Positions 8,724 through 60,799 of a stretch of DNA of 64,000 nt are shown here, piece after piece. Within the stretch, counting starts at the first letter, position 1, and each line of letters opens with the position of its first letter. Both the position numbers and the translations under genes were made by a program. The DNA is from Amoebophrya sp. A120 (Eukaryota > Protista > Dinoflagellata), in contig CAJINV010000003.1 of NCBI GenBank assembly GCA_905178155.1, forward strand, positions 7,921,882 through 7,985,881, written 5' to 3'. The notes below the pieces were generated by a model, which saw nothing but the letters and a program-made list of their open reading frames with translations, had not been told where the DNA came from and did not search any database.

Positions 8724-9556
8724 CTATTGAGACGAAGACGAAGAGGCGCCCCCGCTAGTCCGAACATCTGTAAAGTTCCTTCTCCGCCGCTCCTGCAACT
8801 GGTTGTGGAGCGCGTCGCACTCTTTCCGCCAGTGGGCTTCGGCGGTGCGCACGTTTTCCGAAATTTCCCGCTGTGAGTGAATCAGCGCGACAGAGTATCC
8901 TGTCTTCAAACCGTCCCGACCCCGCATGCATAGCCAAAAAGCGCATTTGCAGCAACACCACTGGTGCCTACTACGGGACCGTTACTGAATGATAGCCTTG
9001 TTCCGAAAAGAATTGCAAAGCTGCAACCAGCACCGTCAGGAGGTGACTCTGCGACGTCGCAGACGCAATAGCTCATAGCCACTCCATCGCAGAACCACGC
9101 TTGCCCTTGCGGAACTATTTGGCTGAACGCGTTGCATTGAACAATAGCAGAAATCGCGGTATCAGTTTCGCTGTGGGGCGGAGACGGTTTTAGACAAGAT
9201 ACGTCCCGATCGACTCGGTCATGCACCTGCGACAGGGTGCGGTACAACCGCAGCTTATGGGTATCTTCCAAGTTCCGAATGTTACTTTGGAGCTGCAGTA
9301 TGTGGCGGTCCCGGTCTGCCACCTGATCCAGCACGCGCTGCAGCTCCGTCCGTACCTCTTCCACACCGGGGATGCCTCCTTCTTCCAGACCAGGGAGCGG
9401 TCCTATCCTTTCCAGCGGATGCTCCTGTGCTGCCTCCCGAAAGGTGTCGCCGCGCTCCTGCAGCCCGCCGGCACCTCCTGCCGGATCTCCCGCGGTCTGG
9501 TGCTGGTAAAGATCCAAAGGACCCAAAGTCTGGAAGTGCGTTGACGGTGTGGCCAT
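8724..9556 (-). CDS. Coiled-coil protein of unknown function, split by one introner
   Basis: MATPSTHF...DRVDRD joins in frame to VALIHSQREISEN...SSSQ* after removal of element 8896-9201 plus 5 nt. Confidence 0.7.
8896..9201. mobile_element. TIR introner, older copy
   Basis: Left TATCCTGTCTTCAAACCGTC; right reverse complement TATCTTGTCTAAAACCGTC. Flanks CAGAG/CGTCC have diverged. Removal restores the frame. Confidence 0.75.
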
Positions 9557-10647
9557 TTTACATCTAGACGAAGTAGACGAGATGAATATGCATTTGAAGA
9601 TGAATCGACTCAAATGACAAGGACAACCGTCAGGACGCGTGTATGTAGACCCTCTGTATCGGTAAATTTTCGAATTGCGCGCTCACTTGCACCCACCTTT
9701 CAGCAACTAGATTTTTTGCCACTATAACCCCACAACAAGAGGTGCGAAAGTCAAGCCCCAAAGATACTCGTGTCACAACTCTTCCTTTTGCGCAAATCGA
9801 CAAGGCGGCGTCCTCAAACTAGGGGGGCGAGCGATAGCGCAGAGCGAGAAAGTGGACTTAGAATGAGGAATAATTTCGAAGACAGTCAACACTTCTCCAC
9901 GGCTCGGCTAGTCAACATCAATGTCTATGAATAAACACCGCCGCAAGCAAAACGTCGCGTCCTTCAGTCGCGTTGCGACATTGGCCCTCTTCCGCCCTTC
10001 TTCTACTTGTCGAAGTGGCCTCAAGTTCCGTGGCTGTGAGTATCATCTCACTGGGGGGATTCTTCTCCAAGGTTTTAGAGAGAAATTTTTACTGTACTGG
10101 TTTGGCGAGGGAGGGGATGCCAAAAAATTACGAATACAACAATATGGTTTTCACAGCACCGGACGTTAATTTCTTACTTCCGAAAGGCAATCGGAAGCAA
10201 TCCAAGGTTGTTCTTTTGGCAAACATAGCTGCAGCTCTTGACAAGTGGTCTAATCACGTTGTGCAACAGGGTGTCCTATAATGCGACTATCTTGAAAAGT
10301 GGAAGGTCAACTGCTATAACAACAACTTCTAAAAAGTGTATTACATGGTAGCCATCGGCACCATCTTTGATCATTTGAGCTTCTCCTCCATTCGCTCAGA
10401 TCATGCACGCGTAGATCGTTGTGATGCAATCCAACGTATCATTCCCGACCTGCATGCAACAGAGACCTGATTTTTTTAATTTTGGAAATCACCGTAGCTA
10501 TAATTGCGTACAGAAGACGACGTCTCTGATGTCATACAGTACATTAGTTCGCATCATGCGAGTTACCACAGCAGTCTGCATCACATTCGCAGCACTGCCT
10601 GAGAATATTAGATTTAGCAAAGAGTATTCCAACTTCCAACTTGATAC

Positions 10648-11186
10648 CATCGGTCTTCGTGTCCCAGAATGCCGTTGCGGCTGTATGCAACGGTGACCCG
10701 TTTTTCTGCATTATGACGCACGTAACTGTAGTTGTAAACGTGATGATCAATGTGGTTTCATCGTCTCTTGTTTTCGTGTTCGATATCAACAATGTATCGC
10801 GATATTCATAATTTTTCGCGACGAGGACAAGTGCCGCGTGCAAAAACACATCACAAATCTATATTTCTATACCGACATATTTGAAGGGCTTGTTGAGCTT
10901 TGCAAGCTCCTTGAGGCAGGCATCCACGATCTGCCCACACCACCCATTGACCTTTTCCTTGTTGTACACACTGTTCCCCAGTGTCTGATGGATTGCGTGC
11001 TTGGCGATCTCTTGGACCTGCTCCGTCACGAACTCATTCTGTTGTGTTTTTTTGTTTTGTATTGTCGGTTTTCGTTTTCAGGAACATTTTTGTCATGCAG
11101 CCAAATCAAAGTCGTCAAAAGAAAAACGCATTCGTGCGGAGAAGGAGGTAAAACAAATCACATAGTACTTGATCCTCGTCATCCAT
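10648..11186 (-). CDS. Tctex-1 type dynein light chain (last exon not located)
   Basis: Exons 11186-11169 (MDDEDQ), 11038-10873 (NEFVTEQV...[31 protein letters not shown]) and 10725-10648 ([27 protein letters not shown]), with GT-AG introns. [13 protein letters not shown] and WD..TDG are Tctex-1 hallmarks. Confidence 0.9.
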
Positions 11187-12116
11187 CTTGGCCGAGATAC
11201 AAGCAAAGAAATCCCGGGAGCCGACGAAAAAAACAGTAGAACCTACGAGGAGGAGGGAAGCAACATGAAACTTTTGAAATTCTAGGTTTGTCCGAGTTAT
11301 GAAACAAAGTACGAACCGATCGAGTTCGAAACGTCAACGGGTCACCAAAATTCCAAAAGTAGTAAGGACCGTGGCCGCAAAATCTAACATTGATTCTCCA
11401 GTTCAATCTCGGTCAAAACCATCTCACCTGACTGATCCTGGTCACTCTTTGAAGTTGCCAATGCCATCACCATGTTTGGCGATCGAGAGCAAGACAACTA
11501 TTCGACGCAAAATTCAAGCGAAAAAGGGTCGAACACTCCTATGTATGCGTCAATGAAATTCTGTGCTTCTTCGGAGTTCACTCACAAACAAAGCGGTTGC
11601 GGACACTACTACTTTATCTGTCTAAATTCTTTATTCCGTCGTAACGAATATCATATAAGGACGGCGTCGATTCTATTTTTCTTCGCTAATTGTTCAGCAG
11701 TCCACTTTCCCACATAGTATACACCTGTACGCATGGACACACGTAAGACGAGAGCCTCCGAGAGATTAAGATTTTGCAACGAGGATCTTGGGGAGGTGCT
11801 ACCTCCGGAGTCCAAGAATGCAGCAATCGGGCACGTTGTATTGGCACCGTCTATTGCGGCGAGAAAAAGAGAATGACGTGTGCGCTTCTTAAGGTGGGCG
11901 AGAAAAAGAGAAAGCACCTCATCGGATTACATTGTCCCTGCCGGCAGGTATCGAGAGAAAGCAGTTCGTCACAGCCACTCATTTGCAGACTTTGCATGAG
12001 AAAAATTTTTTGGCATCACAGGTTTTTCATGTAGTACACAAAAACACAAGGAAAATCCTCCTGCAGGTATGATTTCTATGCATTTTCAAGCATGGCGGAT
12101 GTTTTCGTAAAGATTT

Positions 12117-15100
12117 CTAATGAGTGACGTTGGAGACCAGCTTTTCTTGCTTGGTAGCAATCATCTTTCCTTTTTGTCGTTCTCGGACCCGGCGCAGCGC
12201 ATCCGCGAGACGATCATTCTGCACCTTCATCTGCTCTTTGAGAGAAGCCACTTCTTTTGGAAGCACAGACTCTTCCCTTTCGGACGATACCAGATGAACA
12301 TCCTTTTCCTTCCCGACACTGTGCATGTATTTCCATCGCTCTTGCTGCCACTGTTCCGCTCGCGTTGGACTCATCTCTCCCTCCTGTTGACCCCCCGAAA
12401 GCTTTTCGTTGCCGGTCCAGCTGCCATCTCCTGGTCCCCGTGTCGCAGACTTTTTCTCTTCCTTCTCTTCCCGTGCCCGGTCCGCATTTTTCTCAATGAC
12501 TACGCTTCCCATGACATCGCAAACAGACGGGGTTCGCTTGTCGATCCGCGCCATGGGCTCGGGATCCTCTTGTAACCGACTGAGAAACGTGTCCGGAAGC
12601 GCAACCGAAGTGCCGTTACTGGCACCGGCACGCCAGTGCCTGCGGCTTCGGTTTGGTGCTTTCCCCCCGAAAACTTTGTGCAGCTGCGGCTCGGGCGGCG
12701 CCCCAGAGACTCTCAATTGTGAGGAAATCTTCGATGGGGAGCTGATTTCGGGCGCATCGCACGACTGCCAGCCCCACTTGTCTACTTTGAACAAGGCAGC
12801 ATTGCCTAAATTCGGCAGACCTGACGACAGAGGATAATTCAGGTCCCGGCCACCTCCTTCTTGACTGACGCTCGCGCCTGGTCGTGGCGTAGCTGTGCAT
12901 GACTCTAGTGCATCACCTCGAACCACTTCCGACGTCCTACTGAGCTTTCTATTCGCGTCAGCACTCGTCTTGCACGTCACCTCTGGCGCTTCTGCATCCA
13001 CTGCTTGATGTCGTTGACCACAACGCTGCAGCATCGGTTCCATGAGCTGGCGAAAGTCGTCTAATTTTCCCAATACCTCGTCGGTAGTGCAGTTCGTTCC
13101 GGCGAAATCTCCCTCGCCTCGCTCCTTGTCCGCCTCTTCGTCTTTGTTGGGGCTATATCCGTGCTCCGTAAGGAGGACCGGATGTGGATCCTCGCCGGTC
13201 GCGTTTGTTTGCTCCGGGTAGTAGTAATGAATCAAACTGCCACGCCCGGTGATTTCCACCCGCGGGAGCGGCTGGAGCCGGGATTTCGTGCCCGCATTTT
13301 TTGGCTGCAGTCCAGGACTGGTTGCCACCCACCCCGCTGTCTGCGGCTCGGTTGGGGCAGACTGTACCACAGGATTCCGCCGGAGCAGCATCTGGTTGAA
13401 CTGGTATGTTTCCGTAATCCTGTGCAACAGCGTCCCTGACTCTATCACATCCTCCAAATAGGAAAAAAGTTGCGTCGCTACACAGCTGCTAAAGTCTGGC
13501 GAGTTTCGCACGAAACGCCTAGGAGTGCATTTTCGTAGTTTGTAAACTATTTTTTTACGTAACTTGGTGCTGGTCGCGTTACAGCCACTTGTGTAGTTGT
13601 ACAAGAGCAGTTTACAAACCTGTAAAGTCAACAAAACGCAACATACATGCTCAGAAAGCGCACGATCACACTTGATCGCAAAATTGCAATCTGCTCGCAG
13701 GAACGTTTTTACACAGGATATCCGTCTGCAGCTCCGCTACCTTGCGGCTTAATGCCTCCACGTTCGCATCAAGTGCTGCGTTCACTGTCTCGACTTCCGC
13801 CACACTCGCATTAGCACTAGCTGCGTCGTCGCGCATGTGGAGGATTTCTTCTACGCCGTCCTGCTCCATAGTTGACCCAACAGGTCGTCCCTCGTTCTGC
13901 GCCGCAGACATTGGTGGACGGTTTTCGTGTGCGCGCAACGCAGTTTGCAATCGGAAAATCTGTTTGGAAGCACAGCTTGTTCACTTCTTTTTTACCCTTT
14001 TTCACTGTATCAAACTTTTGTAGCAACCAATGTTTGATAGAAGAACGAGGACGATAGCTTTGCAGGCTGGCTCAAAGAAAATGTTCCTCGTATGCGAAAC
14101 AAATTTGACAACTACCTCAGAGTCGCGCTCCTCCACAGCCCGGCGCATGCGCTGCATTTCGTCGGCATGCTTTTGCTTCAAAGCCGCGACGTCTGCTTGC
14201 CAGGCGTCTCGGAGCCGATTCACTGCTTTTACTTGTTCGTGCAAAGTACCCCCATCGTCCGCCGATCCGCCTTGCCAAATAGACTGCTGCAAGAGCGCGT
14301 CCGGACGAGGTTCTGCTGGTGTGGGACCTGCGTTCCCTTCAGTCGATGTCTTCCGAGAATCGGTCTCCGGAGACGGTGCGCGAGCAACGTACAACCGCGC
14401 TACCTCCTTCTGAAGTGCTTCAATCAGCATCTTTGCCAACTCTTCCTTGTTTGCTTCGGCGTACCCGACTGGGACTGGATCAGCAACGGCATAACTCTTG
14501 GACTCGCTGCTGGCCTGCAAAATTTTTTTTCTTCGATTTTCTTTTTCTGTCCGCTGTTGTTGTTCAACGAAGCGTGTATTATACAAAGCATTTTAATAAC
14601 CAGCAGGCAGACCGAGCAACCCGGCCTTTTGGAAACGCCCGACAGGTTCATCACTGGATAGTGTTTTGCCAAGGTCGTATGCAGCACGTGTACTAACCTG
14701 CTCAAGTTCGGTGATCCTGTTTTGCAGCTGCGCATTCTGGCGCGTCGCGTCCTCCAGAGCCCGACGGAGATCGTGCGCAGACTCCTGTGCTTCTGGTGGT
14801 TTCTTTACTGGCGAAAGCTGCATTTCACTACCCACACTGAGGGCAGGTATCAATGGCCCAGAGCTATCGGGTCCGCTGAAGCCTTTCGTTTTTGATTACT
14901 TTTTCGTGATAAAATGGCGTGGATTTATTTGAACAACTTCCATACAAGAGCAGTATTATATCTACTCACCAGCATCATGGAATTACAATGTAGTTGCTGG
15001 CCTTTTATTCATCAGGCAGACATCGTGATCGTGTGTGATGCGAAATTGACACTGGCAAAGAATTAGTTCCCGTCTTACCTCCGCGGACCACATCCCAGCT

Positions 15101-16027: not shown

Positions 16028-17150
16028 AACAGGCAGGTTTGGTCGCGTGTCCTCGTCCTCGCTACTTATTCAAACGAAACTAGAACCCCATTGTCACATA
16101 AAACCAAAGGAAGAACGACGGCACGTGGTCCCTTACGTGCCTGCAACGCAGGTAATTGCACCTTCGTCGATGCTCGCCAGTCTGCCTTATCTGCGTGTAA
16201 TCGACGAAAGTAGGCTGTTATTCGTTTGCATGCATCTCTACTTTGACGCTAGTAGATCAAATCTATCAACAATCGGTACAGCAGAAACGTCCACGGATAA
16301 TATTAAGTGCGCACTCACTGAAGGCGACCCGGGGGACTGGTGCCGATACTAGCTTACTTAACGCAGCAGAGTGCTCAGCAGGTGGTCCTGCCGATGCTGA
16401 TATCGCTGATCTGTGCCTGTAGTGCGAGCTGATCGCTTCCAGGGCCGGGCGCCCCGTTATCTGGAACTCGTCAATCGTCTTCTGCGTCAGGGTGTACAGG
16501 TCTTTTCGCGTGTACTGCCTGGTAGCACGATTCCTCCTCGGTTGCTCGCGCGAGCCAGTTTCTCCCGGGCGAGACTCGGGCAAACCCCATACCTTTTGAT
16601 GCATGTCTTCCAAAAGGCGCTCGTCGTCCTCCGCGACAAGCGCGTCGGCACGCGCTTGGCGCACAGCGACTGGAATTCGGGGAGCCATCCTGGTTGCGCT
16701 GCGAAGTGCCCACTCTTTCGGGAACCTCACCTACAAGGTCGGTGGATTGACAATAACCGGTAAACTAATACACTTTCTGTCTGGCAGCCGAACCAAACAA
16801 AATCTGAACGGAACTGCAACAGCACCGAGAGTACACAGATAATAAACAAAAAGTGAGCCGATGATGATGATGATGTTGGCAGTGTGCCATGCGGATCTTC
16901 CGCCAAAAAAAAAGTTGTTCCTCACTGGGAAGAAATAAGACGTCGAACATCTTCCGCACCTGCAACAACCAACCTTGTGGCTACACCAAAGAGAAAGATA
17001 CGGCAATTCTTGATACTGCAATTATTATCCGTACAAATTCAAGAAAGTGCACGACAGCATCGTAAGCGCGACTAATTAATCCCGAGTAGAAGTTCATTTG
17101 GTCAGCACAGAAGTCCATTCACTATGGTTTACAACCAGCACCACGGACTT

Positions 17151-21689: not shown

Positions 21690-23909
21690 CTAGATCTGTA
21701 TCTCCTCTCGCTTTGCGTGTTTGACTGCTCCCATAAACATGGAGCCCTGTTGGAGGAAGCGCATGGCCCGTGCCTTGTGGGCCGCTCCCTTTTTTAGCTT
21801 GGCCAACCGCTTGGCGTCGATCTGCTGCTCGGCCTGGTCCTTTTCATCCTCGTCCCGCACCAATTCCGCCTCCTCCAGCATTTTGTCCGTCAACAGATCG
21901 TATCAAATGCAAAAATGTCTGGGTCTGGAAGGCTGTGAGATTTCTCATGCACATTTTGCATGATTCATGATGCCGGTGATGCATGCCCCAGCATCACAGA
22001 TTTTGTGAGCGCTTCCTGATGCCTATACCGGATGAGAAATGCCCCCTCTGCGTGGCAAAAACTGAACTCCTCTTGCTGCTCACGCAATACAGATTTTTGT
22101 AGAATCCAAAGGCCGCGTCACAAGTTGCATCCTTCCAGACGCAGACATATTTGCAATGCATAGATCGTCGCGGGCGGTGAAGCTCTTGAAAAACTGTGAC
22201 TGCTTTACCTCCTCCAGCCTTTTCTCCCCCAGCTCGCCCGCACCGATCACGTTCTCGTCGTGGCAGATCTGCCACCCGCTCCGCTTCACGAGTTTGCGCA
22301 GCTTCCGCAGCGTCTTCAGCTCTTTCCGGAGCGTCGGCGGCGTCTTCTCCCCCATGATCAGCTGCCGCTCCTTCATCACCCTCTGACCGGTGGGGGAAAA
22401 AAATAGGTGGTCGTGGAACAATTCGTCGGACGTTTTCAAACGCGTTAACCGGTAGGTGAGGCGGGCCTCCTCCCGTGCGCCGTGCATCCAGTCCGCCATA
22501 ATCTCGGGGCTGCGAAACACGCGCTCCGAGATCCGGCTCTTTTTGTTCTGCGCGTTCAGAAAGTCCGTGAACGGATCCTTCTGGAACAGGTGGCCCCGCT
22601 TGTGTTTATTCGCCCGGTGCTGCGAGGAAGAGCCGTGGTCCCCGCCGCCGCTCCCCGCGGTGGTCGGGTGGCTGGTACTCGCCGTGTCCAAGTGCACCCT
22701 TTGGTGGTCCGCCTGCTCGGCCAGCGCGGCGGCGTGCTGCGTGTGGTGTATGCCGGCGCTGACCGCCATCAGGGCTCCCGGAATCAGCTTGTGGCTGGGG
22801 ATCACGCTGTCCACGGGCTTCTTCGCCGAGGTCGTCGGGGTACCCAATTTATTCAGGAGAAACGGTGGCAGGCTGCGCGTACGCGGGGTGCTCGCGTAGT
22901 GCCCACTCGTGGTTTTGCTCATCGGCAGCTGTCGGCGGCTGCGCTCGATTTTCAACTGCGCCAGCTGCTCCAACTCCTGCTCGTACATTACCTGTGTGCT
23001 GCTCATCTTCTGCTCCAGCCACTGCACGTGCGCCTTTTTTTTCAAAATCTGAGTCTGTATCTGCTTCTGCTGCTCCTTTCGCTGTTTCTCCGCCACCTCA
23101 CCATCGTCTTCTGCGCCGTCAACCGAGGCTTTATTATTTCCGGGCTCATGATGTTGATCAGGCTCCATCTTCAAACTCATCAGGAGTGCCGCGCCCGTCG
23201 CCGGCGTCCCCGATGGCAGCCACGGCTTCCGCAGAAACTGCGGCTTGTTCTCCGACTCGTCCTTCCCGGTCGTGGGCGACGCGGACCGAGAGCGCGCGTG
23301 CTCCGCGACCGGCGAGACCGCCGGGCGCATCGGCTTGCTGCTTCGAGTGGTGGACCCCTTGGCAAAAGAGCTGGAGGTGGTGGTATTCTGCCCGCCCGCG
23401 CCAGCGTCCGTATCGACCTCGTGCGCCGCGCCGTCCAGCTCCTCAATGACGGACCGATTCAGAGTGGATACCAGAGACCGGTCGATGGACGCCGCCTCGC
23501 AGAGATCCACCACCTCGCTGCTTTCCGCGTCTCTTTCTTCATCCTCTGCTTCTTGTTCAACCGCCCCAGCCGCCGTCGCGCGGCGACGAGAAGATGTCGA
23601 AGCGCTCGGCGCGAGGACCGGATCTACTTCTGCGTCGTCTCCTTCAGCAGGTTGTTCGTCTTCGTCCTCAAAGGCCTCCTCCGAATATTTTTCTTCTTCC
23701 GCGGAGATGTGGGTGTCATTCTTTTGTTTTGATGAAAACGTCGCCGCTTCTTGTTCCATTGCCTCCGAATTCTCCTCGCCGCTCTCCTGCAGACCGAACA
23801 AATCGGCCTCGGGACCACCCCGGTTGCTGTTTTGGGCGTTGGCGCTGGCCGCACCAGGGTCGCCCGCATGCCAACTCGAGGCGGAATCGCCGCCCGCGGC
23901 CGCGGCCAC
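21690..23909 (-). CDS. Acidic N-terminus / coiled-coil protein of unknown function (start uncertain)
   Basis: The 609-aa ORF joins at FTARDD|LLTDKMLEEAE to ORF 21690-21893 after removal of introner 21901-22162. Confidence 0.75.
21901..22162. mobile_element. TIR introner, family B (262 bp)
   Basis: Perfect TSD GATCG. TIR of about 30 bp, TATCAAATGCAAAAATGTCTGGGTCTGGAA. Same length as, and homologous to, 38652-38913. Confidence 0.92.
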
Positions 23910-24267
23910 GGTAAACGAAGACTGGTCCTTCTCGAGAACCTACTATTACATTGAAAAGCGCCCCATCGTCCCCGGAAAGTGGAAATGTTTCTGATGCAAA
24001 GTTTCCAAAGCCAAACAGTAACAGAAACTGCTCTTTGCCTTGCACGAAAGGACTCCCACGAGTCTTTCTGGTGCAGAATCTAGGCAAGTGATGCGTCTTA
24101 TACATCACAGGCCGGGCTGTTGCTGGGCTCTTTCGCAATACAAATTTTTGCGATCATTCACCGTCGACTGTTTGCGATGCTGATACATGCAAAATGCGGA
24201 ATATTTGCATTGAGAAGACTTGCAATCCAAATGCTTCCAAGTTCTGGGGTAGCTGTAGGAGCACTTT

Positions 24268-25968
24268 TCAACACGCTAGCTCCGACGCGGGGAGCTCAGA
24301 CTCGAACGTAGCCGTGAGCGATTTTGATGAATAATCGACCGGATCTTGCTTCTCGAGAAACTCCTCTAGCCCTTGGGCGACGACGTTAAACGACGACTCA
24401 AAAGCCAGGTCTACTTGTTCCGGATGGTCGCTCGACGGGAGCTCCTCCATCACGTCTACCGCAGCTGCGCCCGAGCCGCCCAGTGACTGTACCGACACCA
24501 CCCCGTCCAAATCGCTAACGCCGTCCTCCCCTAGAGCACCCTCCAAGCCCGCAAGAATGTCGTCCATTGCATGCTGCTCAGGCGACGCTTGCGGCTGCGC
24601 CCCAACACCGACAAGGCCGAGAATATCTTCGACTTCTCGTGCGGGGCTGGCAGATTCAGCAACAAGGTCCTGCTTTGCTGCGAGAAGCACTTCAATCTTT
24701 TCTGCTTCGACACTTTTCTCGAGCTGTGCGGCTTCACCCGCGAGAACGGGTTGTACGTCTACGTCTGCTTCGCGTGTGACACCAGCGTCCGCTTTCCTTC
24801 CCGTCTCCCGTCCTTTTCCTCGCTCTTCGTCAGTAGTGACCACTTCGGAAACTATCTCCTCGCTCACCTGGTCCGCAGCCCGCTCGGCAGCAGCCGCGCC
24901 TCTGCTCTCCGGCTCCAGCAAGTCGAGGTCCTCATCACTTTGCGGAAAAACCCGACCGTCTCTGCGCAACCCGAGCTCCTTCTCAACTTGCTCGTTCATG
25001 CCAACCTCCAGACGAGCATCTTTGGACTCGGTGGCGATGCGCTTCTTGTGCAGCAGAAACTCGAACTCGTCCGCGAGCAACTTGCGGTACGCCGGCTTGG
25101 TGAGGCGCTTCAAGAAATCGCCGATGGTAATCTCGGTTGTGTCGTAGCTAAAGCTTGCAAACGGGTTACTATTTTGGGCTTCCGCGGCGGCGGTGCTTGT
25201 TGTGCTACCAGCTCCACCCCGGTGCGGACTAGTCCGCGGCTGGAGATACGCAGGGGTCTTCCCCGACTCCAGGCCCACGTTCTGGATGTCGGCGCACACC
25301 TTGCGGGCAAACTCTTCCTCCAACAAACCCCCGGCGACGAGCTCCTTCAGACTGAGCCCGTTCGCCTTGGGTAGGTCCAGGCGCTGCTGTTCCGCTGCCT
25401 TGACTTCTTCCATGCACTTCAGCAACAGTTTTTTCCGCTCCTCGGTCCGCACCTTCACCTCTTCCATGTCCGGGCGGCGGCCCCGGGGGGATCCCGCCGC
25501 AGGCTCGGGCACGGACGGCAAGTTCCGCAGGGACTGCCCCATGTCGTCCAGCTTCTCGCGGAAGTTCCACGGCGGCTTGCCACGGGGCGAGTAGTAGATG
25601 TCGTGTCGCGGCTCCTCCTCCGGGGGCCGCATCAGCCACTCCTCCTCGGAGACCGGATCGTAGAACAAATTGATCACGTCCTGAATCTATCCAGAATGCA
25701 AATATCGATCCGGGTCTGGAAACTTAAACTTGCAACGCTAGCCACTCCATTAAAAACGAGCCGGGCATGACAGATTTTTCATTTTTTGACAAATCGCGCT
25801 TTTGCATGACAAACCTTGCGACACTGGTCCGTTTTTTCATGCATCACCAGATTTTGGCCTCATCCGAGTGCGCACGACAAATTCGCATCTGCTCCCAGAC
25901 CTAGACATATTCGCAATGCGTAGAATCCCCACATAGGACACAGTCAAAAACTCCTCCATCGCGCGAAC
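24268..25968 (-). CDS. Acidic protein of unknown function (further 5' exons likely)
   Basis: The 469-aa ORF extends upstream as VRAMEEFLTVSYVG|IQDVINLFYDP after removal of introner 25688-25922. Confidence 0.65.
25688..25922. mobile_element. TIR introner, diverged family B
   Basis: Perfect TSD GAATC. Termini TATCCAGAATGCAAATATCGATCCGGGTCTGGA and CCAGACCTAGACATATTCGCAATGCGTA. Removal restores the frame. Confidence 0.88.
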
Positions 25969-40973: not shown

Positions 40974-44794
<3,821 letters not shown>

Positions 44795-46426: not shown

Positions 46427-48624
46427 CTACGCATGCTTCTTCCCCTCTTTTCCCTGTAGAGTTTTCCTCTCTTTGTCCTCCTTCTCTAGCAGTCGCGCCC
46501 CAGCGGCGTTCTCTCGCTCTTCCAAGTACATAAAGTTTCTTCTCATGTAGTCGAGGTACAGGGTCCGGTCAAAATCTCCGAGGAAGAAGTTGCAGCTCAG
46601 ATTTGCCTCCAGCAACACAGGTTTCGTCGCCGTATGGTTTTCCCCCACGTCCTCGTCCACGAGAGCCACGTCCCAACCCACGAGCGGAACGTGCGGACAC
46701 AGCTCGCGGTGCGCCCGCTCGCACACCGCCAGTACGCTGTCGATTTCCGGCACCTCGAGGCCCACCATCCGCAGCCCGGAGTCCGGGTGGACACTGACGC
46801 CGGCGGCCTTGGACGCGAAGCCCCGACGAAACACGCCGGCTTTGGTGAAGCAGCCCTCCTTGCCGGAGGCAGTCTGGAACACCGTGCCGCCGAGCTGGTA
46901 CCAGTGCGAGTTGATCGCTCCTCGCGTGATCCGCCCCTTCTTCCCGTGTTCGGGACTTAAGTTCACGTTGTAGAAGATACTGCGGTGATCCGTTTTCGCG
47001 TGCTGCCGGCCCGCACGAAACACGCACGTTAGGATGTGCACTTTTGGAGACGAAGATCCTGCCCCGTGGTCCTGCGGCTGCTCCGCACTGGTCATTGAGG
47101 CCTCGCTTGCCGTGAGCACACGGAAGGTCGACAGCGGGCAAGGCTCGGGGAGCAGACACTGCAAGCAGGGGGTATCAAGCAAAAATTAAAATTATCAACT
47201 CCCCTTCCCGCGTCATACTGTAGCGAAAAAGAACCCGTGCACCTCTTCAGCTTCTTTGGTGCATCGACAGACCGGAACTTTGTTTGTCGCCATGCTCACT
47301 CAGAATATAGAATCTAAAAACTCACGATAGTGAATTAGGTTTTTTTGCTCACATGCTGCGACAACCTTCTGCAAAAAGTGGAAGTGCCAGAAGTAGAACT
47401 CGGCGCGCGTGGGCAATAAATAAATCTATCAGGTCCGGGGAAACTGACAACGTAGTTTAGTTCGATAGGACGCGTTTTGCAGCTTCGCCTGCAGAATCCA
47501 GTTTCCACCCGTGGCTGCGTTTTTGAAAAAATGGATGCCCATGCCGCCCTCTTCGTTTTTGTCTTTGCAGACCAGTGTGTCCAGGGCGACCGGCACCGCG
47601 GGCTTCCCGGATTCTTGTTGCTGGACAAGGTGGTACCCCAGTCCGGCGTATCCTGCGAAAAAAACTTTCCAGCCACACCCTCCCTGACACGCTGCGAAGA
47701 GAAGCATCTATAATACGTAACTCCAGTGCCGATGCAAAAAACTTGAATCCAATACTACGGTAAGCTTTTTAGGAGGCGTTGGTTTAAGTATTTTCATCCG
47801 CGGGATACGACGCACGGGGTGATGGGGACCTGCTTGGCGTGGCATTTTTGCAGGAAATCCCACTTGTTTTCCATCAAATACTCGTCGCTCAGCGTCAGGC
47901 AGCTGTGGTACGTCGCCAGGGCGCAGTTTAGGCGCCACCAGGTGAACCAGGTGTCCGGCGTTACTAAGTTCCCCTGGTACAGGATGCACACCTCCCGCAG
48001 GCAGATCTGGGCCTTCTCCCAGACCGCTTTCCACGTCTTGCCGCTTTTTCCGTCACCTCTGTAATTCCTGCCGGACGATGAAGACGTGGTCCGTGGCGGT
48101 GAGGTCCGCGCTTCCCCTCCTGTTCCGCCGGTACTGGTGCCATCCGCTTCCTGCTGCTGCTCCACCGCCCAGACGGCGAACGCCGCAACGAAGCACACCA
48201 GCGGGTAGAGGAAGAGCAGAAAGAACATAAAGGTCCACTTCGAGATGCAGACGAAGGCAAGCGGAACCCCGGTCCCCGGGAGCGCGACGTTGCGCAGATT
48301 TACTCGCAGGTCCTCCCCAAAACTGCCGCACCGGTAGTGTGGCCGGTCCCACAAGCGGAACACTAAGCACAGTGAAAACAGATGCAGCTGCGCGGCATGA
48401 CGGGCCTCGTTCCCCAACTTTGGTTCACAAAAGAACCGGCAGTCTCGGAGCCGCCCACCGCGGGAAAAGTGCCACAAACATTGATAGTACGCAACGGTCG
48501 TCGCGAGACATTCGCTGGCCGTGAACGCCCTCCCAGCAGCCTGCAGGCCCGTCCGTTCCGCAAACGTCGCTGCACTGTGTTCCTGCGTCTTTGTTTCGAC
48601 GCTCGATGAAGATTTTCGTTGCAT
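46427..48624 (-). CDS. ATP-grasp fold protein resembling the sugar-transfer-associated ATP-grasp family
   Basis: MENKWDF, LVCKDKNEEGGMGIH, WILQAKLQN, LSTFRVLT, VHPDSG, LVGWDVAL and LLEANLSCN. Three ORFs join in frame across two introners. Confidence 0.75.
47173..47467. mobile_element. TIR introner, older copy
   Basis: TATC...AAA...TCCCC termini. Flanks GGGGG/GGACG. Removal joins LQNAS|CLQCLLP. Confidence 0.68.
47649..47807. mobile_element. TIR introner
   Basis: TSD CGGCG/CGACG. Left TATCCTGCG; right reverse complement TATCCCGCG. Removal joins ITPCV|GLGYH. Confidence 0.82.
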
Positions 48625-49847: not shown

Positions 49848-51052
49848 TCATTTGGTCCTCGGCGAGCACGTTCTTCCAGGCCTGGAAATTGATTTCGGGA
49901 AAGCAACACGTGTTTTCACGCTCCTAAATCCTGTTTTCTCCACGCTTTGCGCCAAAGTCGCGCACGACCTCCAGTGGCTCATCTTTATCTTGCGAACAAA
50001 ATCGACATGCACATGTTGCAAGGGGCCAAAAAAGAAAAGTAGTATACCTTGACGATTTTTGAGACCTGAAGCGGCGATACGACACCAACGCTCTGGAGCT
50101 GGTTGCTCAAAACAAGTTGCGTGAACTGTTGCCCATCGATCCCTCGCATGTCCACCGCGCCACACATCTGGTCTTTTATTTTTTCGGGGACAAACGCGTC
50201 CGGCAGACTCTTAATCCAGTCTATTACCTTCCCCGGACTCTTGCCACCCGCACGGGAGTTCGCAGGTATATTTGGCGGGGGTGGATTCGGCTTGGGTGCT
50301 ATCCTCTGCAAAAAAAGTTTTCCCGGCCAATCAAGAATAGAATACATTCGAGGTTTACTGCCTATGCAAGCGCCTGATGTACATCTTCATCAGAACAGGA
50401 GTTGATCTATGCCATCGTGATAGCAGTCGAATCTATAAACTCACAAAGTGCGTTCTGTGCTACATTTTTCTGCTCAGGATCGAATTCTGCAGCTTGTCGC
50501 AACACCATAAAAGTATAATGCGCTGCTGTAGCTGCGTCAACCTAAGACCTCAAGGAGACATCATGAAGCGTGCTTGGCTAGGTCGTGGGAGACTTTATGC
50601 ACAGGATAGCCGCCTTGGGCTGTGGTTGCGCGCGCGTGCTGGGCTGTGCTTTTTCTTCTGCGCGATGCACTTGTCGAATTTCCTCGCTTTCGTCGAAGGA
50701 CGGATTGAATCGCTTCTCTCGCCCCTGGCCGGTGTTACCTGGGTCGGTAGAAACAGGGAGCTGAAACGCCGACGCACGACTTAACACAAAGACAACACCA
50801 TCCGTTCATGATACGAAATTCGTTACAGCGAGCTTGGCGCGTTCCGCGACGGAGGGAGCAGGGGCCCGATATACAAAGAAATCGGAATGAAGATCCAAGG
50901 TGGTGAAATAAATCTAATGTGTACTATTTGCACTGGAACAACAGAAAATACGACAAACGTAAATTAATACCCCGGCTCGACGACGTGCGCCCAGTTTCCT
51001 TTTGGTCGTCTTGGTCCCGGACCGCCATAGCCTGGCTTCGGAAATCATCCAT
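49848..51052 (-). CDS. Multi-exon protein with SAM-like domain (boundaries approximate)
   Basis: VIDWIKSL...IDGQQF...LQSVGVVSPLQVSKI follows the SAM pattern. QPKA|AKPNP is joined across introner 50300-50608. Confidence 0.5.
50300..50608. mobile_element. TIR introner
   Basis: Left TATCCTCTGCAAAAAAAGTTTTCCC; right reverse complement TATCCTGTGCATAAAGTCTCCC. TSD GGTGC/GCCGC. Removal restores the frame. Confidence 0.82.
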
Positions 51053-51817
51053 CGCAAATACGAGAGCCTCAACAAAATTTCAACAGCGGAATATTCGCCG
51101 TTCTCTTGCGGCTAGAACGTACGGGAAGCAAGTAGTGTCCAACTACATCCTCGCAGGCGCATGAAACCTCAAGAACATTGGCAGAAACACATGGTAGCAA
51201 CACTGAGCAAGACTGATCATTTCGATCCTTATTTCCTGAGACCCTCAATCATTTGCGGGGCACACTGATGTGCAGACGCTGGAAGTTCGTCGAAAGGGTT
51301 TCCCGGCCTCTGTGCGGGCGGACAGGTATGGAGTAGAAAAACTACGCTTGCGCTAAGTAATAAATTCGGGGACGTCCGCAAAACTAGGGAAGTAGATGTC
51401 GACGACCATGCAAGAAGCACAGACAGCGGAGCTACGGCCCCGCACCTGACGGGTTTCCGTACTTTTCATCACGTTCCTTTCGCTAGTGCCCCACAAGGAA
51501 GTATGCACACACGCTAGGAATTTTTCTGTGCGGTAAGGCGGTTGTTTCTCTCCTTCCGCGGGAAGCTGCTGGTGAAGGAGGGTACCCTGGAGCGACTGCG
51601 GAACGCCCGGCTGCGTCGGCACCCCGCCGCCTCCCCCGGACTGCATCTGCGGTCGCTGTCCGCGCTGCTGCGGCTGCGGCGCGCCCGCGTGTATTGGTGG
51701 CGCGTTGGGATCAAATCTGTGGAATCAAGGTGACAATGTTAATGCAGCAAAACAAACCAAATCATCAAAAGACGCTTGCGCGTCATAAACCGAAGAGGAA
51801 AGATTCAAGAGCTCGCG

Positions 51818-53119
51818 TTATCCAATATCGTACGGATCTCCGCTTTATCAGGTGTAACAGATCCTTCTTTCTTGTTGTGTAACCACGACTCTGCTTGGCA
51901 TTGCTGCAGAAATGTGTACGAGTGTGCAAAAATATTAATCAGATACAACTAAATGGTCCTCCAGATGCAAACTGTGACGCGCGGCGTGAGCGAATCGCGC
52001 ATGCAAACTGTGACGCGCAGCGATCCGGGTCTCCAAATGAAAATGAGTTGAGTAAGGAGGATTCGTTACACCCGATATGACAATGCGACCACCCAATTGC
52101 GGACCCGCTGGCGGACCCCCGGGCGGTCCACGGGGTTGCTTATTCTGCATCAGGGGGGGGCCCTATCAAACCCAAAAAAGCTAGCAGGATATACCCGGAA
52201 TGCTAAAATAAAATCCGCCATGGCTGAGCCTGTCTAGCATGCTCTTTTTCAGGATATAAAGATTTTTCTGTAAACATTACAGGTGTGACCAACTAGTTTT
52301 TTCCTGTGGGATAAGCCTTGACTTCCGCCTGCGCCGCCGCCTCCGTGACCACGCCCTTTGTCGCTCTGCTGGGCCGGGCGGAGCAAATCTCGCGAGCCCG
52401 GATACATTTGTGCCTTGTCGAGGCCAGCCTGGTCACAAACTCGCTCAAACACTTTCCTGAGATGGAGTTTCACATTGTTCAATATCAGAATGACGCCACG
52501 ATTGACAAGTATGGTATATCATTGTCCCATCGTACTACATGAGTCCGATCGCTTTGCAGGATTGAAGGACAACAATTGGGTGGTCCGTAGATGCACAACC
52601 ACGGGGTAATTCAACGGCGGGCGGACAAATAACAATAAGTGGGATGCTTGAAAAATACCTCGGCAAGTCCGCAAGCTCCTTCATTTGCTCGGTTAGTGCA
52701 CGATTTCGTGATTCCGCCATGTCCAGGCTATTCTTATACTGGTCTCGTTCCTCTTCGGCCTTCCTTGCCCGCTGCTCTCCGAGCTCCAGGTCTGCTCGCC
52801 TGGTATGCAGTTTTGTGAAATTTCATTGCGCTCCGCCACGTATTTCCAACTTCTACTTCTTGATTCATTCTGTTGCCTCTTTCTCGCATGAAAACCACGG
52901 AAGCTGAATATATTTTCTGCCGTACAAAAACTCGAGTCGCTACACCCGGTAAGGAGCACCTAGTGGTACGCAAAAATTAAGGTGATTATACAATTTTTGG
53001 ATCTGCTGCGCCATGCGCAGAGTTTCTTCGCGATGCGCAGCGTCTACATCCGCAGGGCCTCTCTGCTGCTGATGCCGGTTCGAACTGCTGAACGTGGTGT
53101 TGAGCCGTATCCTATCCAT
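51818..53119 (-). CDS. IQ-motif / coiled-coil protein (one internal junction unresolved)
   Basis: A GT-AG join gives IQKFFRGFHARK (IQ motif). Later exons join as GSQG|PPLMQNKQ and GRIV|GDPYDIG* across two introners. Confidence 0.5.
51846..52077. mobile_element. TIR introner with internal direct repeat
   Basis: Left TATCAGGTGTAAC; right reverse complement TATCGGGTGTAAC. Flanks have diverged. ATGCAAACTGTGACGCGC occurs twice inside. Confidence 0.65.
52164..52313. mobile_element. TIR introner
   Basis: Left TATCAAACCCAAAAAAGCTAG; right reverse complement TATCCCACAGGAAAAAACTAG. TSD GGCCC/AGCCT. Removal restores the frame. Confidence 0.72.
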
Positions 53120-53800
53120 TGATGAAACTGTCGCAGCTAGTCGAAATATCATACATGCACATGGCGTCTAAGTCTAAAAACACATGCGCACTTTTCTAAA
53201 ACACGCACCGACTGAAACGCGATACCTTCATGCAAAAACCATGTAAAAACGCGTAACTTTTATCGTGTCTATCGTGCTGCCAGAAATAAACTATGCGACT
53301 GCGATATTCCTTTTTCCCCTTGATACGGATCATTGGTGCTCACGGTTGCATTGAGACGGGGATCCAGCTGCACCTGTGAGCCGTCATCCAGCTGGTGCAT
53401 CTGTTATTTCAGGTGTTATTGTTCTTGGTTTTCTACGTGCCGCACGGTGGCTCGGAAACAACAGGTGAAGCCAAAGAGAAGTAGGATAGCAATGAAGACA
53501 TTGATTCGCACACGTACTTCTAGATCAAGTTCTGCAGAAGTACTTCTTCGTGCAGTTCTTTCGCGAGAGGACGCAGAGTGACACTAAGTACCCGACTGGT
53601 CGGATTGCGACCTCCCGGGGGTCGCATCCCTGCTACCGGCATGTCGGGGGTCTGCTGCTCGGTGGCATTTCGGTTGGACCCTCCTCTCTGCGCGCCGGGG
53701 ATGTTGCCAGGACGGCACCGTATCCAACGCAAAAAATCGGTGAGTAAAGCAAAATTGTGTAGCGAACCTCGAATATTCGGACAGGAAAGCCATGACACCA

Positions 53801-54896
53801 TCATGGCTCATCCAGAAACAGAATTAGAACTATGTGCCCGCACACACATAATGAACAAATACACAGACATCCGTGGTCACATAGAGAAAGCCGGTATCGT
53901 GCTGTGGGGACCTCTTTAGACGAAACCGACATCAAGCGGGGGCCGCGGTCCCTTCGACAATATTCAACTTTAGACTCCCGATGTTCAACGAGCGTACGAT
54001 CTAATGTGATGTTCCTCGTGTCCGGAAAATCCTGGTGCCACACCTTCCTTATGCGCGAACCTGATTTTTGGTAAGATTGAAATTTTCAGTTTTACGTCAA
54101 CATCATCAAAGATTTGAAGCGTACTTCCAAAGAATTCTTTTCCGTGTAGTTGTTGACACCGTGCCTCGAGCGGTGAGATACCTATGCGACGACTTTGATC
54201 TCCAGTCACAACAAAGTATGATCACATCTAGCAAAACGGGTGGTCTGCATTACTGATAGAAACAAAAAGAAAAACTGTAATACAATGCAGCATGGTGAGG
54301 CCCTCGATGCCCATCTCCGTAAACGCCGATCAAAAGGAAAACTGGGAAAGAAGCCGCTGCAGATAATGAACGCATCAGAAGTTGTACATCTTTTGCGAGC
54401 TTCACATCTCCGAGAAACAGGTTGTTGCTATGCATGATATACCAAGTAGACGCGATTTGCCAGTAAGTAAAGCTCCTCAACGCGCCGCCGACAGCATTTT
54501 TATACATTTCCTTACGAAAGTAAAATTCCATTGGGGGAAACAAGGCCAAACGGCCTGCCCAGGGACATGGACATACTGCAAGTCACAACATGACCTTTGC
54601 GTGCCTCCAGTTATTTTAGTTCACTTCGATAGAAATTCGTGATTGTTCAGCATGCCGGAAAACGTGTGGCCGCCGATCTGGTGCGCTTTGACGCGTTGGG
54701 ACAGCAGAGAGAGGATGTCCCCCGGAATTATGTTCAGCATGGACGAGAGCCATTGCGACACTTGCGCGGGGTTGTGATTCATGACAACTCCTGCGTTGCG
54801 AAAGCTATTTCCGAGAATTGTACTGCCAGGCTGGTCGTTGCTGGCCCTTGTCTGCGGATCGACACGCCGCGTCCGCGATTCCACTCGCTCGTTCAA
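53801..54896 (-). CDS. Multi-exon protein with second SAM-like domain (boundaries approximate)
   Basis: AQVSQWLSSM...QIGGHTF in ORF 54621-54896; a later exon reads SRIRKVW after a CAG acceptor near 54060. Confidence 0.4.
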
Positions 54897-55785
54897 GTTG
54901 ATCAGGTAGACGACCTTCGCCGCAACTCTTATTTCTTCTTTCGTTCACGTGCAAAGCCGAAGGTCGACCAACCTCGCAAGGATTGATCTTATTTGCGACC
55001 AGCGGCGTATTTACTTCTTCCCCGCTCGGCGACTGCTGCGGCCTGGCCCAAGAAGCAGCGAACGAACATTATTGGCAGGCCCGGCGCCATCTTCAAAAAA
55101 CGCAACGTGTGCTTGATCCAAAAAACACGCGCCAACACGTTCACACAGGCACGGCGATAACACTTCCCCTCCTTCACACACGAACTCTGTATTTACAAAC
55201 ACAAGAAATTTGCTACCGGAATCACGACCGCTACGTGCTACAAAATTATGCTGGCCGCGCACCTACCACCTATTCTTGTTTACACAACCTCAAGAGGCTT
55301 CTTGCCATATCCAGTCACATCACGAACCAGGAAATTATGAAGTAGAGAACATCAGAGGGCTACAGCCGCAACACTTGCACTTCCACGGCGATTAGAAAGA
55401 TGCACAACATTCATACGTACGCAAACGCACACACACCAAGCACTGCGACACTACAAGATGACATTGTTTTGAAAACTAGGCTGCGTCACTCCTTTTACAG
55501 TGTGTCTTCCTGGCCTGTGCACTGGGAAAAGCCCATCTATCATCCTGAAACTTCTGGAACACAGAAGCGACAGGTAAATCGTTTTGAACATGTGGAAGTA
55601 CATCTAACATGGCAGGACACCGGGGCGTTTCAGTTGCAGCGGCCAGGCGGAAGGCCAATTGCTGGCGGTGTATGTTGACGAAAGTGGACATAGCAACAGG
55701 AAAAGCGAAACGTGGAAGTAGAGTCTCTGAAGACGAATTTCTTGCATCCGATACGTAGTATAGTATTTATCGCATCTCGCAGCAG

Positions 55786-57661
55786 TCAGCCTGTGGATGC
55801 GGAACCATCCTCCTGGTCCAAAACTTGAATGGTTGCACCCGTCTGAACATAGAAGCACACCTCGCGCGCGTCGTCGTCCTCCGCAAACGGAAGGGCTATC
55901 GGGTCCCCGGGGTTCACTACAGCCAGTCGCATCTCCTTCACGGGAAGCAGCCGCTGAAAGCAATTGTGACAGAAAGTTTTCAGCTCGGCGATGCTGATTG
56001 TGCCGGGGATCTTCTTGCGGAGCGGTGGCAGATGCAGTATCGAACCCCCGGCGGGCTGCAGCGTCAACTCCATCAAATTGGCTCCGAACGCACTGCCACC
56101 CTGAGAGTTTTGACAAATATCGACTGAGTTCATGCGCAGCGTCATCAAGAAATGACGGGCGTACTCGTCTGTCCCGCTCTCAAAGTGGAACAAAATTGCG
56201 TGATTGTACGAAAAAAAAATTTATACAGGTCCGCACAACTTTTTGCATTCGTACCGTGTTTTCCGCTGTTTTCTGATAGACAAAGCCCTCTCCGTGCACG
56301 GCTTCCAACCGCTTGCGATGGAGTTGCGCGGGATCCACGGCCTCTAAGATTTCGGAAATCGACCCGTTCGCCCACAAGGAGAGGAACATGCGTTCGGCGT
56401 TCACGCGCTCTCGGGATGTGATCTCCGACGCGTTCAAGCGATTCAGGGACGGCATGAGGGCGAGCACGATCTGGCGCAGGGCCTGCGCGTGCCCGATGGG
56501 GTTATCGGATACCACCAATTGCCTCAGGCCGGTGTGCGAGATCAACCACGCGATGGTCTTCCAGTCTCGAATCAGGTTGTTGCTGCACGAGACACTGGTG
56601 ACGGTTGGCGGGAGCGCCGCCCCCAACCGCAGCGTCTCGTCTGTGAGCTGGTTTCCGGACACGTTCACGCTGCGCAGACGCGGCAGCCGCTGCAGAACCT
56701 CGAGCGTCTGGTCCCAGCTCTGCAAGCAGTTGTCTTCCAGCTGCACGTGCGCGAGACAGGGCAGCCTCTCGGGAAGATCCTCCGCCAGCCTCTCCCAGCC
56801 GTTCGCGCGGACGTGGAGCTCCTCCAGCTCCGAAAACAGGTGCGTAGGCATGGCGTCCCAACCAACGCCCGTTTCGTTCAGCACGAGCGCGCGCAGGCTC
56901 GGACAGGGGGGTAGGGGTGTCCTACTTTCATCGAAGGCCGCTATACCGGAACCGTCGCTCGTGTCCGGGTTTGACGAGGGGTTTGCCGTAGGACCCGGTG
57001 TTGACGCCTTCGCGATGGTGGGTCGTGCGAGACGGTTCCCGGTAACACTCAAAAACGCCAGCTGCGGGCAGCCCGTCCAAATGTCGGCCAACGTGGACCA
57101 GCTAGTAATCAAATTGTGGTCAAGGGAGAGACGCTGCAGGTTTGGGAAAGCAAAACCTCCCCGAGCTGGGTCTGAAGATGCAGACCCGATCGCAGCACTA
57201 CTAGTACAACTGCGCTGCAAGCAATTGCGGCTGTCCCCAATGAGGCAGCTGGAAAGATTGATTTCGCACAGGGACTGAAAGTTCTGCATGCGCGCAACCA
57301 CTTCTGCGCGTCCGACAAACTCGACGGACCGGGACCGAGCTTTCGCGTGGTCGTGAAACTCCAGGGGAACCTCTTCGTCGGAGTACTTGGATTGCAAGGC
57401 TTCGCCAAAAGACAGTGGCGGCGAAACCTTCTGTACCTTCACGAAACTACCCGTCTTCTCTGGACAAGTGAATCGCCGAATGCCGTTGTGCGTGCCATCA
57501 TGCTTCCCCTTGCCCACTTCGTCGTACTCCACCCCGAACCACCGGTCCTCTCCCTGCCCGGGCAAGACTTCGGGTCCCCAGCGGATGGTCGCCAGGTTTC
57601 CCCCCACATAGAGACGGCTGCCCACCTCGAGCTCCGCGGCGCTTGGCGTGTCATCTACCAT
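55786..57661 (-). CDS. TBCE: Tubulin-specific chaperone E (CAP-Gly, LRR, ubiquitin-like domains)
   Basis: WFGVEYDEVGKGKHDG CAP-Gly motif, LxxLxLxxN repeats, LNASEITSRERVNAER, and a ubiquitin-like C-terminus in ORF 55786-56193 joined as HGEGFV|QNSQGG. Confidence 0.9.
56118..56278. mobile_element. Degenerate TIR introner in TBCE
   Basis: TATC...GATA termini with weak TIR and shifted flank similarity (ACAAA/GACAA). Removal plus 5 nt restores the frame. Confidence 0.55.
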
Positions 57662-60703: not shown

Positions 60704-60799
60704 TATGCTTATGGTGGGTGTCTTTATGGTGAAACGATTTACCTGGACGAATTGGCAGACGTGGGACACTCGGCCCAAGAGCAGGCAAAGGCGATGCAA

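What the first reader, a model, noticed from the sequence alone, without database searches (positions are those of the whole stretch)
8896..56278. At least 23 TIR/TSD transposon-like elements act as non-canonical introns in coding sequence
Seen: elements of 116-550 bp begin TAT(C), often TAT-N7-AAA, and end (G)ATA. They carry terminal inverted repeats and 5-bp flanking duplications, 11 of them perfect. They interrupt 12 gene models, including conserved UGM motifs, and deleting element plus one TSD gives an in-frame join each time. The implied boundary dinucleotides vary (TT-AC, TT-CT, TT-GA, CT-AT, GT-CC, CT-AG). Established: introners with inverted and direct repeats and non-canonical splice sites are described in Amoebophrya, so the phenomenon is not new; as far as I know the excision machinery is unresolved. 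Inference: many element families with unrelated interiors share one hairpin-directed excision system alongside ordinary GT-AG introns in the same genes.
Basis: partly seen in the sequence, partly recalled or inferred. Interest (0 to 1): 0.88.

Follow-up and report, generated by a model that had tools for sequence, protein, structure and literature searches.

The report
Transposon introns cut by fixed ruler
Dozens of small hairpin-ended transposons sit inside genes of a marine parasitic alga relative, a known oddity, and the junctions here show that they are removed at one fixed spacing (one base before, four bases after the hairpin), likely by an altered spliceosome that needs no GT-AG signal.

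Summary
Real, and largely already published. Window proteins are identical to proteins that a source labels Amoebophrya sp. A120, whose TAT-N7-AAA introners Farhat et al. 2021 described. I count 30 elements (116-550 bp, 11 perfect 5-bp duplications) in 8 gene models, not 12. New here: all 14 informative junctions share one register only, intron = N-TAT...ATA-NNNN, with the cut inside the duplication. Six of the 14 rest on homologues or contig ends rather than deposited gene models. That paper's legend calls the cut position variable or unknown, and its figures were not visible to me. In transcript sense U+2 and A-7 never vary (30 of 30) while their hairpin partners do. With 183 elements from a second assembly the counts are 0 vs 8 and 0 vs 8 (p=0.008 each, post hoc). 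This points to a U1-less spliceosome with a branch A at -7, which is inferred and untested. SOS/RTCB splicing is the main rival. The scan noted a similar hairpin intron in another dinoflagellate (e1-7693921).

The parts
8896..9201 (-). TIR element body, duplication decayed; intron 8892-9202 if the common register holds
   Evidence: TIR duplex p<0.005; frame only
11949..12156 (-). weak candidate element
   Evidence: poor TIR (p 0.26); frame only
13416..13720 (-). element, perfect 5-bp TSD, family-A-like end
21901..22162 (-). family B element, perfect TSD
   Evidence: ORF 1173 aa after removal of three elements
23944..24278 (-). old element, decayed TSD
   Evidence: joins ORFs of 472 and 619 aa in frame
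25688..25922 (-). family B-like element, perfect TSD
31584..31788 (-). element, perfect TSD
   Evidence: P0149 reproduced
31922..32037 (-). shortest element (116 bp), perfect TSD
   Evidence: P0149 reproduced
32263..32485 (-). element with decayed TSD; junction pins c=3-4
   Evidence: only W-A-W fits P0149 and homologues' AWQGCD
32502..32781 (-). family A element, inverted relative to 38327/42284
32833..32981 (-). element, perfect TSD
32997..33251 (-). element, 1 TSD mismatch (silent in protein)
38327..38606 (-). family A element in cation-efflux gene, perfect TSD
   Evidence: frame evidence ambiguous
38652..38913 (-). family B element, perfect TSD
40058..40343 (-). family B-like element, 1 TSD mismatch
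41163..41340 (-). UGM element; pins c<=4
   Evidence: W of xWSRGRFG in 108 of 109 homologues with the motif
41601..41605 (-). 5-nt micro-exon between element 41610 and a GT-AG intron
   Evidence: needed for conserved YHRRL
41610..41915 (-). UGM element; pins c=3-4
   Evidence: neither TSD copy alone gives Y-H-R-R; ends pair, z -2.67
42284..42563 (-). family A element in UGM, perfect TSD
43744..43920 (-). old UGM element (CT-AG); pins c=4-5
   Evidence: conserved WVPYPFQ
44125..44674 (-). longest element (550 bp), UGM, perfect TSD
47173..47467 (-). element in ATP-grasp gene; pins c=3-5
   Evidence: X3 contig ends at 47169 as predicted for a spliced/unspliced branch
47649..47807 (-). element in ATP-grasp gene; pins c=3-5
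   Evidence: X3 record 16 piece starts at 47808 after 177 letters
50300..50608 (-). element; pins c>=4
   Evidence: P0147 reads KAAKP
51046..51264 (-). old element; single solution, intron 51042-51265 (c=4)
51327..51535 (-). old element; c=4-5
51846..52077 (-). element before a micro-exon of about 9 nt (GDP); c=3-4
52164..52313 (-). element; c<=4
53113..53325 (-). old element; c=4-5
53721..53996 (-). old element; c>=4
54328..54631 (-). old element; single solution, intron 54324-54632 (c=4)
56101..56254 (-). ordinary GT-AG intron of the TBCE-like gene, misread as an element ending at 56278

Best explanation
These are short non-autonomous DNA transposons (inverted ends starting TAT, random 5-bp target duplication) inserted in exons, and their junctions fit one fixed cut register, one base before the 5' TAT and four bases after the 3' ATA, likely made on the pre-mRNA by a modified U2-type spliceosome. 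Shown: anatomy, 5-bp duplication without sequence preference, both orientations, common register, invariant U+2 and A-7. Because 1+4 equals the duplication length, a new insertion is removed without a scar; as the two copies drift apart, the mRNA carries four letters of the upstream copy and one of the downstream copy. Inferred: the terminal hairpin brings the ends together in place of U1/AG recognition, U+2 acts as the donor signal (N-UAY, like the GUAY of neighbouring canonical introns), A-7 is the branch point, and the acceptor is set by distance from it. Inferred: mobilisation by an unidentified transposase acting in trans.
For: Register. With c = letters of the upstream TSD copy kept, the allowed values are: 54328 and 51046 only 4; 53721 4-6; 53113 and 51327 4-5; 50300 4-7; 52164 <=4; 51846 3-4; 32263 3-4; 41610 3-4 and 41163 <=4; 43744 4-5; 47173 and 47649 3-5. 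Only 4 is common to 14 of 14, and homologue conservation alone (41610 with 43744) also gives 4. Table S4 of PMC7789003 lists nine predominant A120 pairs, all with T second, and nine A25 pairs, all TT. Asymmetry: U+2 30/30 and A-7 30/30, against partners A-5 25/30 and U+4 25/30. In a second assembly, 183 of 189 strand-called elements kept: variants +2:0, -5:3, +4:3, -7:0; combined 0 vs 8 and 8 vs 0, p=0.008 each. Transposon origin: 93 of 122 family-B copies there have a perfect 5-bp TSD with near-even base use; 29 same vs 18 opposite orientation to the gene. DNA retains the elements in unbroken X1 contigs (records 3, 7, 8). U2, U4, U6 (and U5 in A120) and nearly all spliceosomal proteins are present and U1 is undetected (PMC7789003). 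Precedents: Giardia VTATGTT donor with fixed branch-to-acceptor distance and intron base-pairing (PMC6679479 passages); Fritillaria MITE introns reported as spliceosomal (review PMC11282704).
Against: No lariat, branch or snRNP data. No read-level junction was seen: raw RNA runs X9/X10 laid only 27 and 4 reads and the joints table was swamped, so precision per molecule is unmeasured. Eight of the 14 constraints come only from deposited models, which were built from transcript alignments and could carry aligner bias. The asymmetry test is post hoc, not significant in the second assembly alone (p=0.25 each), uses codon-model strand calls, and dropped 6 of 189 rows with two or more end mismatches. 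A-7 is paired with U+4 in a perfect stem, so it must fray to branch. Only 7 of the 14 canonical introns I inspected have A at -7 (read), so a shared ruler is not shown. Neither G+1 nor AG is kept. The Euglena paper argues that its hairpin introns use non-spliceosomal factors.
Confidence: 0.55

Rival explanations
1. A precise version of SOS splicing: paired inverted repeats are recognised as double-stranded RNA, cut by an unknown nuclease and joined by RTCB, without the spliceosome.
For: SOS splicing is triggered by ITR pairing, ignores GU-AG and works on unrelated transposons (PMC12779559). Here many families in both orientations are removed and the ends pair.
Against: SOS cuts at several sites and leaves indels; here one register fits 14 of 14 junctions. 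Old elements with poor pairing (53113, 53721, 54328; duplex p 0.05-0.41) keep the register. U+2 and A-7 are conserved while their partners vary. That paper does not mention Amoebophrya.
Confidence: 0.2
2. A dedicated euglenid-type system: a short end motif plus fixed spacers (Euglena N3-CDG...CHG-N5-6; here N1-TAT...ATA-N4), excised as circles by unknown non-spliceosomal factors.
For: Same logic of motif plus asymmetric spacers with the longer spacer at the 3' end; a MITE origin is proposed there too (PMC12501133).
Against: Different motif and spacers. No purine preference at exon +1 was seen here (table). The 5' end matches the local spliceosomal donor from +2 to +4.
Confidence: 0.17
3. The elements are excised from DNA (IES-like) before transcription.
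For: TIR/TSD anatomy allows precise DNA excision.
Against: X1 contigs run through eight element sites with no difference or gap, and X3 contig ends fit coexisting spliced and unspliced forms. Cut-and-paste excision would not explain transcript-strand asymmetry. Caveats: contigs drop rare variants, and X1 may be the window's own source.
Confidence: 0.04
4. The elements are gene-breaking insertions or are removed through nearby cryptic GT-AG sites.
Against: Intact conserved motifs across five UGM sites and exact recovery of two deposited proteins without GT-AG ends.
Confidence: 0.04

Closest known systems
Introner elements / non-canonical introns of Amoebophrya sp. A120 and A25 (Farhat et al. 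2021, PMC7789003)
   Same: TAT + 7 nt + AAA inverted repeat, 3-5 nt direct repeats, lengths, coexistence with GT-AG introns, many families. Window proteins are identical to proteins labelled A120.
   Different: The paper's Fig. 3 legend calls splice sites variable relative to the hairpin and border positions unknown, and its Fig. S23 legend gives 1-5 nt. Here one register (1 and 4) and two invariant nucleotides are derived. I could not see the figures.
Euglenid non-conventional introns (PMC12501133)
   Same: Paired end motif, fixed asymmetric spacers, probable MITE origin, machinery unknown.
   Different: CDG/CHG with spacers 3 and 5-6 and a purine at exon start; circles reported; here TAT/ATA with spacers 1 and 4.
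SOS splicing (AKAP17A, CAAP1, RTCB; PMC12779559)
   Same: Removes TIR transposons from mRNA by end pairing, without GU-AG.
   Different: Imprecise, often out of frame; factors not checked in this organism.
Fritillaria borealis MITE-derived non-canonical introns (seen through review PMC11282704 and listing of PMC13326754)
   Same: TIR/TSD introns without GT-AG; spliceosome adaptation proposed.
   Different: Preferred AG-AC/AG-AT ends there; here +1 and the last four bases are free.
Giardia/Trichomonas introns with fused branch point and 3' site (PMC6679479)
   Same: Donor VTATGTT with relaxed +1, invariant branch-to-acceptor distance, intron base-pairing.
   Different: They keep AG and a CTRAC branch motif, are few and old, and are not transposons.

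Membership tests
Amoebophrya A120 introner elements | IR starting TAT, 7 variable nt, then >=3 A | tested here: met
Amoebophrya A120 introner elements | 3-5 nt direct repeat at the boundaries | tested here: met
   11 of 30 perfect 5-bp, the rest decayed
Amoebophrya A120 introner elements | Repeated in the genome | tested here: met
   family A 93-99% identical copies; summed contig depth 1e4-2e5 vs about 25 (not a copy number)
Amoebophrya A120 introner elements | Removed from mRNA at non-GT-AG sites | tested here: met
   indirect: deposited proteins, homologues and contig ends; no junction read seen
MITE (non-autonomous TIR DNA transposon) | TIR, fixed-length TSD, no coding capacity | tested here: met
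   longest ATG ORF 107 aa among 28 elements; 93 of 122 with 5-bp TSD
MITE (non-autonomous TIR DNA transposon) | Autonomous partner with the same TIR | tested here: inconclusive
U2-type spliceosomal intron | GT...AG ends | tested here: not met
   0 of 30 at the common register
U2-type spliceosomal intron | U at +2 and a branch adenosine | tested here: inconclusive
   U+2 30/30 and A-7 30/30; branching not shown
U2-type spliceosomal intron | Lariat intermediate, U2/U6 dependence | not testable with these tools
   needs lariat sequencing or inhibition
SOS splicing substrate | Paired ITRs in exons | tested here: met
SOS splicing substrate | Multiple cut sites leaving indels | tested here: inconclusive
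   the dominant product is precise at 14 junctions; minor isoforms not measurable from contigs
SOS splicing substrate | AKAP17A, CAAP1, RTCB dependence | not tested
Euglenid non-conventional intron | N3-CDG...CHG-N5-6|R code | tested here: not met
   N1-TAT...ATA-N4
IES-like DNA elimination | Empty sites in DNA of the same organism | tested here: not met
   unbroken X1 contigs over eight sites; rare forms would be missed

The most novel reading that the evidence does not exclude
Amoebophrya A120 has a splicing code in which neither G+1 nor AG is read: a transposon's own terminal hairpin presents U+2 and a branch A seven bases from the acceptor to a U1-less spliceosome, with a 1+4 ruler matched to the 5-bp target duplication, so any insertion of any such family in either orientation becomes a scarless intron at once.
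Probability: 0.45. Interest if true: 0.85.

Novelty: already known. Interest (0 to 1): 0.5.

Why it matters
The elements are published, but how they are spliced is open. A fixed register turns 'no clear splice signal' into a rule (N-TAT...ATA-NNNN) that could correct tens of thousands of intron boundaries. It also names two nucleotides to test. A lariat at -7 would show a spliceosome working without U1, G+1 or AG. Its absence would point to a precise, genome-wide form of SOS/RTCB or euglenid-type splicing. Either result explains how a host can tolerate mass transposon insertion into exons.

Tried and rejected
No RNA holder listed as such for 38000-47990; X3 is a guessed RNA run. Raw RNA runs X9 and X10 do not cover the locus (27 and 4 reads laid), so they gave no junctions. 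No second read alignment was obtained, so cut-site heterogeneity stays unmeasured. No whole genome was held, so there is no genome-wide count and no search for RTCB/AKAP17A/CAAP1 or a transposase. The family-A end was not found in viral contigs (0 matches). The second assembly (loci L001-L131) matched the window only in bins that hold family A/B elements, so DNA empty sites were not tested. A 2459-bp TSD-flanked stretch in L046 has a 415-codon ORF with no Pfam hit; it may be host DNA between two ends, and the atlas gave no answer. A 6-bp duplication at 56121-56278 was rejected as coding sequence. Candidates near 14849, 16067 and 26063-26903 were left out as unresolved. Searches used ends a few bases off for 23944 and 25688, corrected; the greedy UGM model mis-set one junction, corrected. 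A at -7 in canonical introns (7 of 14) is not convincing. Literature searches for a published register or branch point found none; figures of PMC7789003 and Roy et al. 2023 were not seen.
Full report
Identity and prior work. Three window genes encode proteins identical over the matched region to proteins that a source labels Amoebophrya sp. A120 (P0001; P0147; P0149). Farhat et al. 2021 (PMC7789003; I read the abstract, sections 10-12, 16, 25, 32 and supplement passages, not the figures) report more than 60% non-canonical introns, inverted repeats starting TAT + 7 nt + AAA in A120, 3-5 nt direct repeats, and no detectable U1 snRNA. The phenomenon is therefore published. Its Fig. [quoted passage not shown] S23 legend places the repeats 1-5 nt from the sites.

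Observation. Scans for TIR plus flanking repeat and gene-by-gene reading give 30 elements of 116-550 bp in 8 minus-strand gene models, 11 with a perfect 5-bp duplication. Nine meet a strict test, against 0.7 expected (maximum 3 in 40 shuffles). Twenty-one have outside support: six in P0149, eight in P0147, five in UDP-galactopyranose mutase (family by PDB match E 1e-171), and two from contig ends. Nine rest on reading frame only, some ambiguously. Family A (32502, 38327, 42284) is 93-99% identical, with 32502 inverted; family B ends recur four times; most other interiors do not align, but GCATGA occurs at 4.9 per kb inside against 0.53 outside (28 elements examined).

Transposon origin. Of 122 unique paired copies, 93 have a perfect 5-bp duplication, with near-even base composition. 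Those copies lie in both orientations relative to the gene strand called by a codon model (29 vs 18). No element encodes more than 107 aa and no autonomous partner was identified. PMC12130899 (passages) describes an A120 TIR family with integrase-like homology, which is a lead only.

RNA, not DNA. X1 contigs cross elements 32997, 41163, 41610, 43744, 44125, 47173, 47649 and 50300 with no difference or gap (X1 may be the window's source, and contigs hide rare forms). In X3, a guessed RNA run, one record ends at 47169 and another has 177 letters before a piece that starts at 47808. These are exactly the positions predicted if spliced and unspliced forms branch and the upstream TSD copy is kept to at least its third letter. 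This is an inference from coordinates; the joint rows were hidden.

The register. In mRNA sense an element reads U(5)-TAT...ATA-D(5). Where U and D differ, the protein shows how many letters c of U are kept. Allowed values: 4 only (54328, 51046), 4-6 (53721), 4-5 (53113, 51327), 4-7 (50300), <=4 (52164); 3-4 (51846); 3-4 (32263); 3-4 (41610) and <=4 (41163); 4-5 (43744); 3-5 (47173, 47649). All 14 contain 4 and no other value is shared. At 41610, H or Y (111 of 115 homologues with the motif, of 120) followed by R (101 of 115) needs a cut inside the duplication, since either copy alone gives YHGR or YRRR. With 43744 this fixes c=4 without deposited models. The intron is thus N-TAT...ATA-NNNN. 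The 30 elements then show 26 different end pairs, none GT-AG, all with T second. The nine predominant A120 pairs in Table S4 all have T second, and the nine of A25 all start TT. Deposited models were built from transcript alignments because standard tools failed, so they reflect RNA indirectly.

End asymmetry. The two ends are equivalent in DNA, yet in transcript sense +2 is U in 30 of 30 and -7 is A in 30 of 30, while their pairing partners -5 and +4 each vary in 5 of 30. In the second assembly, 250 elements were found, 189 in strand-called loci (52 of 78), and 183 were kept after dropping 6 with two or more end mismatches. Variants were +2:0, -5:3, +4:3, -7:0, +3:0, -6:4. Combined, 0 vs 8 and 8 vs 0 (p=0.008 each); the second set alone gives p=0.25. 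The test is post hoc and the window set was partly found by motif.

Mechanism. U+2 and a branch A are what spliceosomal chemistry reads (general knowledge). Most canonical introns here start GTAY, which matches the introner from +2 to +4. Giardia offers a precedent: donor VTATGTT, invariant branch-to-acceptor distance, intron base-pairing (PMC6679479 passages). I therefore favour a U1-less U2-type spliceosome in which the hairpin joins the ends and A-7 sets an AG-less acceptor (0.55). Against it: no lariat data, A-7 is paired in a perfect stem, and only 7 of 14 canonical introns have A at -7. SOS splicing (PMC12779559: abstract, first part of main text, discussion) is hairpin-triggered but imprecise (0.2). 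The Euglena code N3-CDG...CHG-N5-6 (PMC12501133: abstract, discussion) has the same ruler logic with unknown factors (0.17). Other Amoebophrya strains are GT-AG, and the Karlodinium-infecting one has U1 (PMC12005148 passages), so the trait is lineage-restricted.

Novelty. The elements are already known. Seven searches and passages of PMC11282704, PMC11453091, PMC9860276 and PMC13326754 gave no statement of a fixed register or branch position. Unseen figures 3, S19 and S23 of PMC7789003 may already show part of it. An unchecked note of this scan reports a similar signal-free hairpin intron in Prorocentrum cordatum. Interest 0.5: a known system, with a sharper rule and a direct test of its open question.

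Noticed in passing
window 41601-41605 and about 51834-51842: Micro-exons of 5 and about 9 nt lie between an introner and a GT-AG intron, which suggests ordered removal (introner first).
   Followed up: partly
window 38827-38914: Raw RNA run X9, which does not cover the genes here, has a few reads 90-95% like family B with other flanks, so a related family seems to exist in another population.
   Followed up: no
L046 475-2934: A 2459-bp stretch with a family-B end, a weaker partner end and a perfect 5-bp duplication holds a 415-codon ORF with no Pfam hit; it could be an autonomous or composite element.
   Followed up: partly
window 45208-46000: Deepest non-repeat X3 contig (depth 530) lies where no Pfam-matching ORF was found.
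   Followed up: no
window 52800-52991 and 52457-52658: Some GT-AG introns have the introner end pattern (G-TAT ... ATA/ATC-NNAG) and may be old introners with canonical ends.
   Followed up: partly
window 60650-61720: A G-run and a C-run flank an AT-rich kilobase where gene orientation appears to switch from minus to plus; contains the window's one N.
   Followed up: no
window 10700-11040: Exon that resembles a Tctex-type dynein light chain (recalled likeness, no call).
   Followed up: no
window 14849-14911, 16067-16232, 26063-26903: Further possible decayed or hybrid introners (a GT donor with an introner-type acceptor would restore frame at 14849); unresolved.
   Followed up: partly
window 2180-3140: Long Gln/Pro-rich tandem repeat in a minus-strand ORF.
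   Followed up: no
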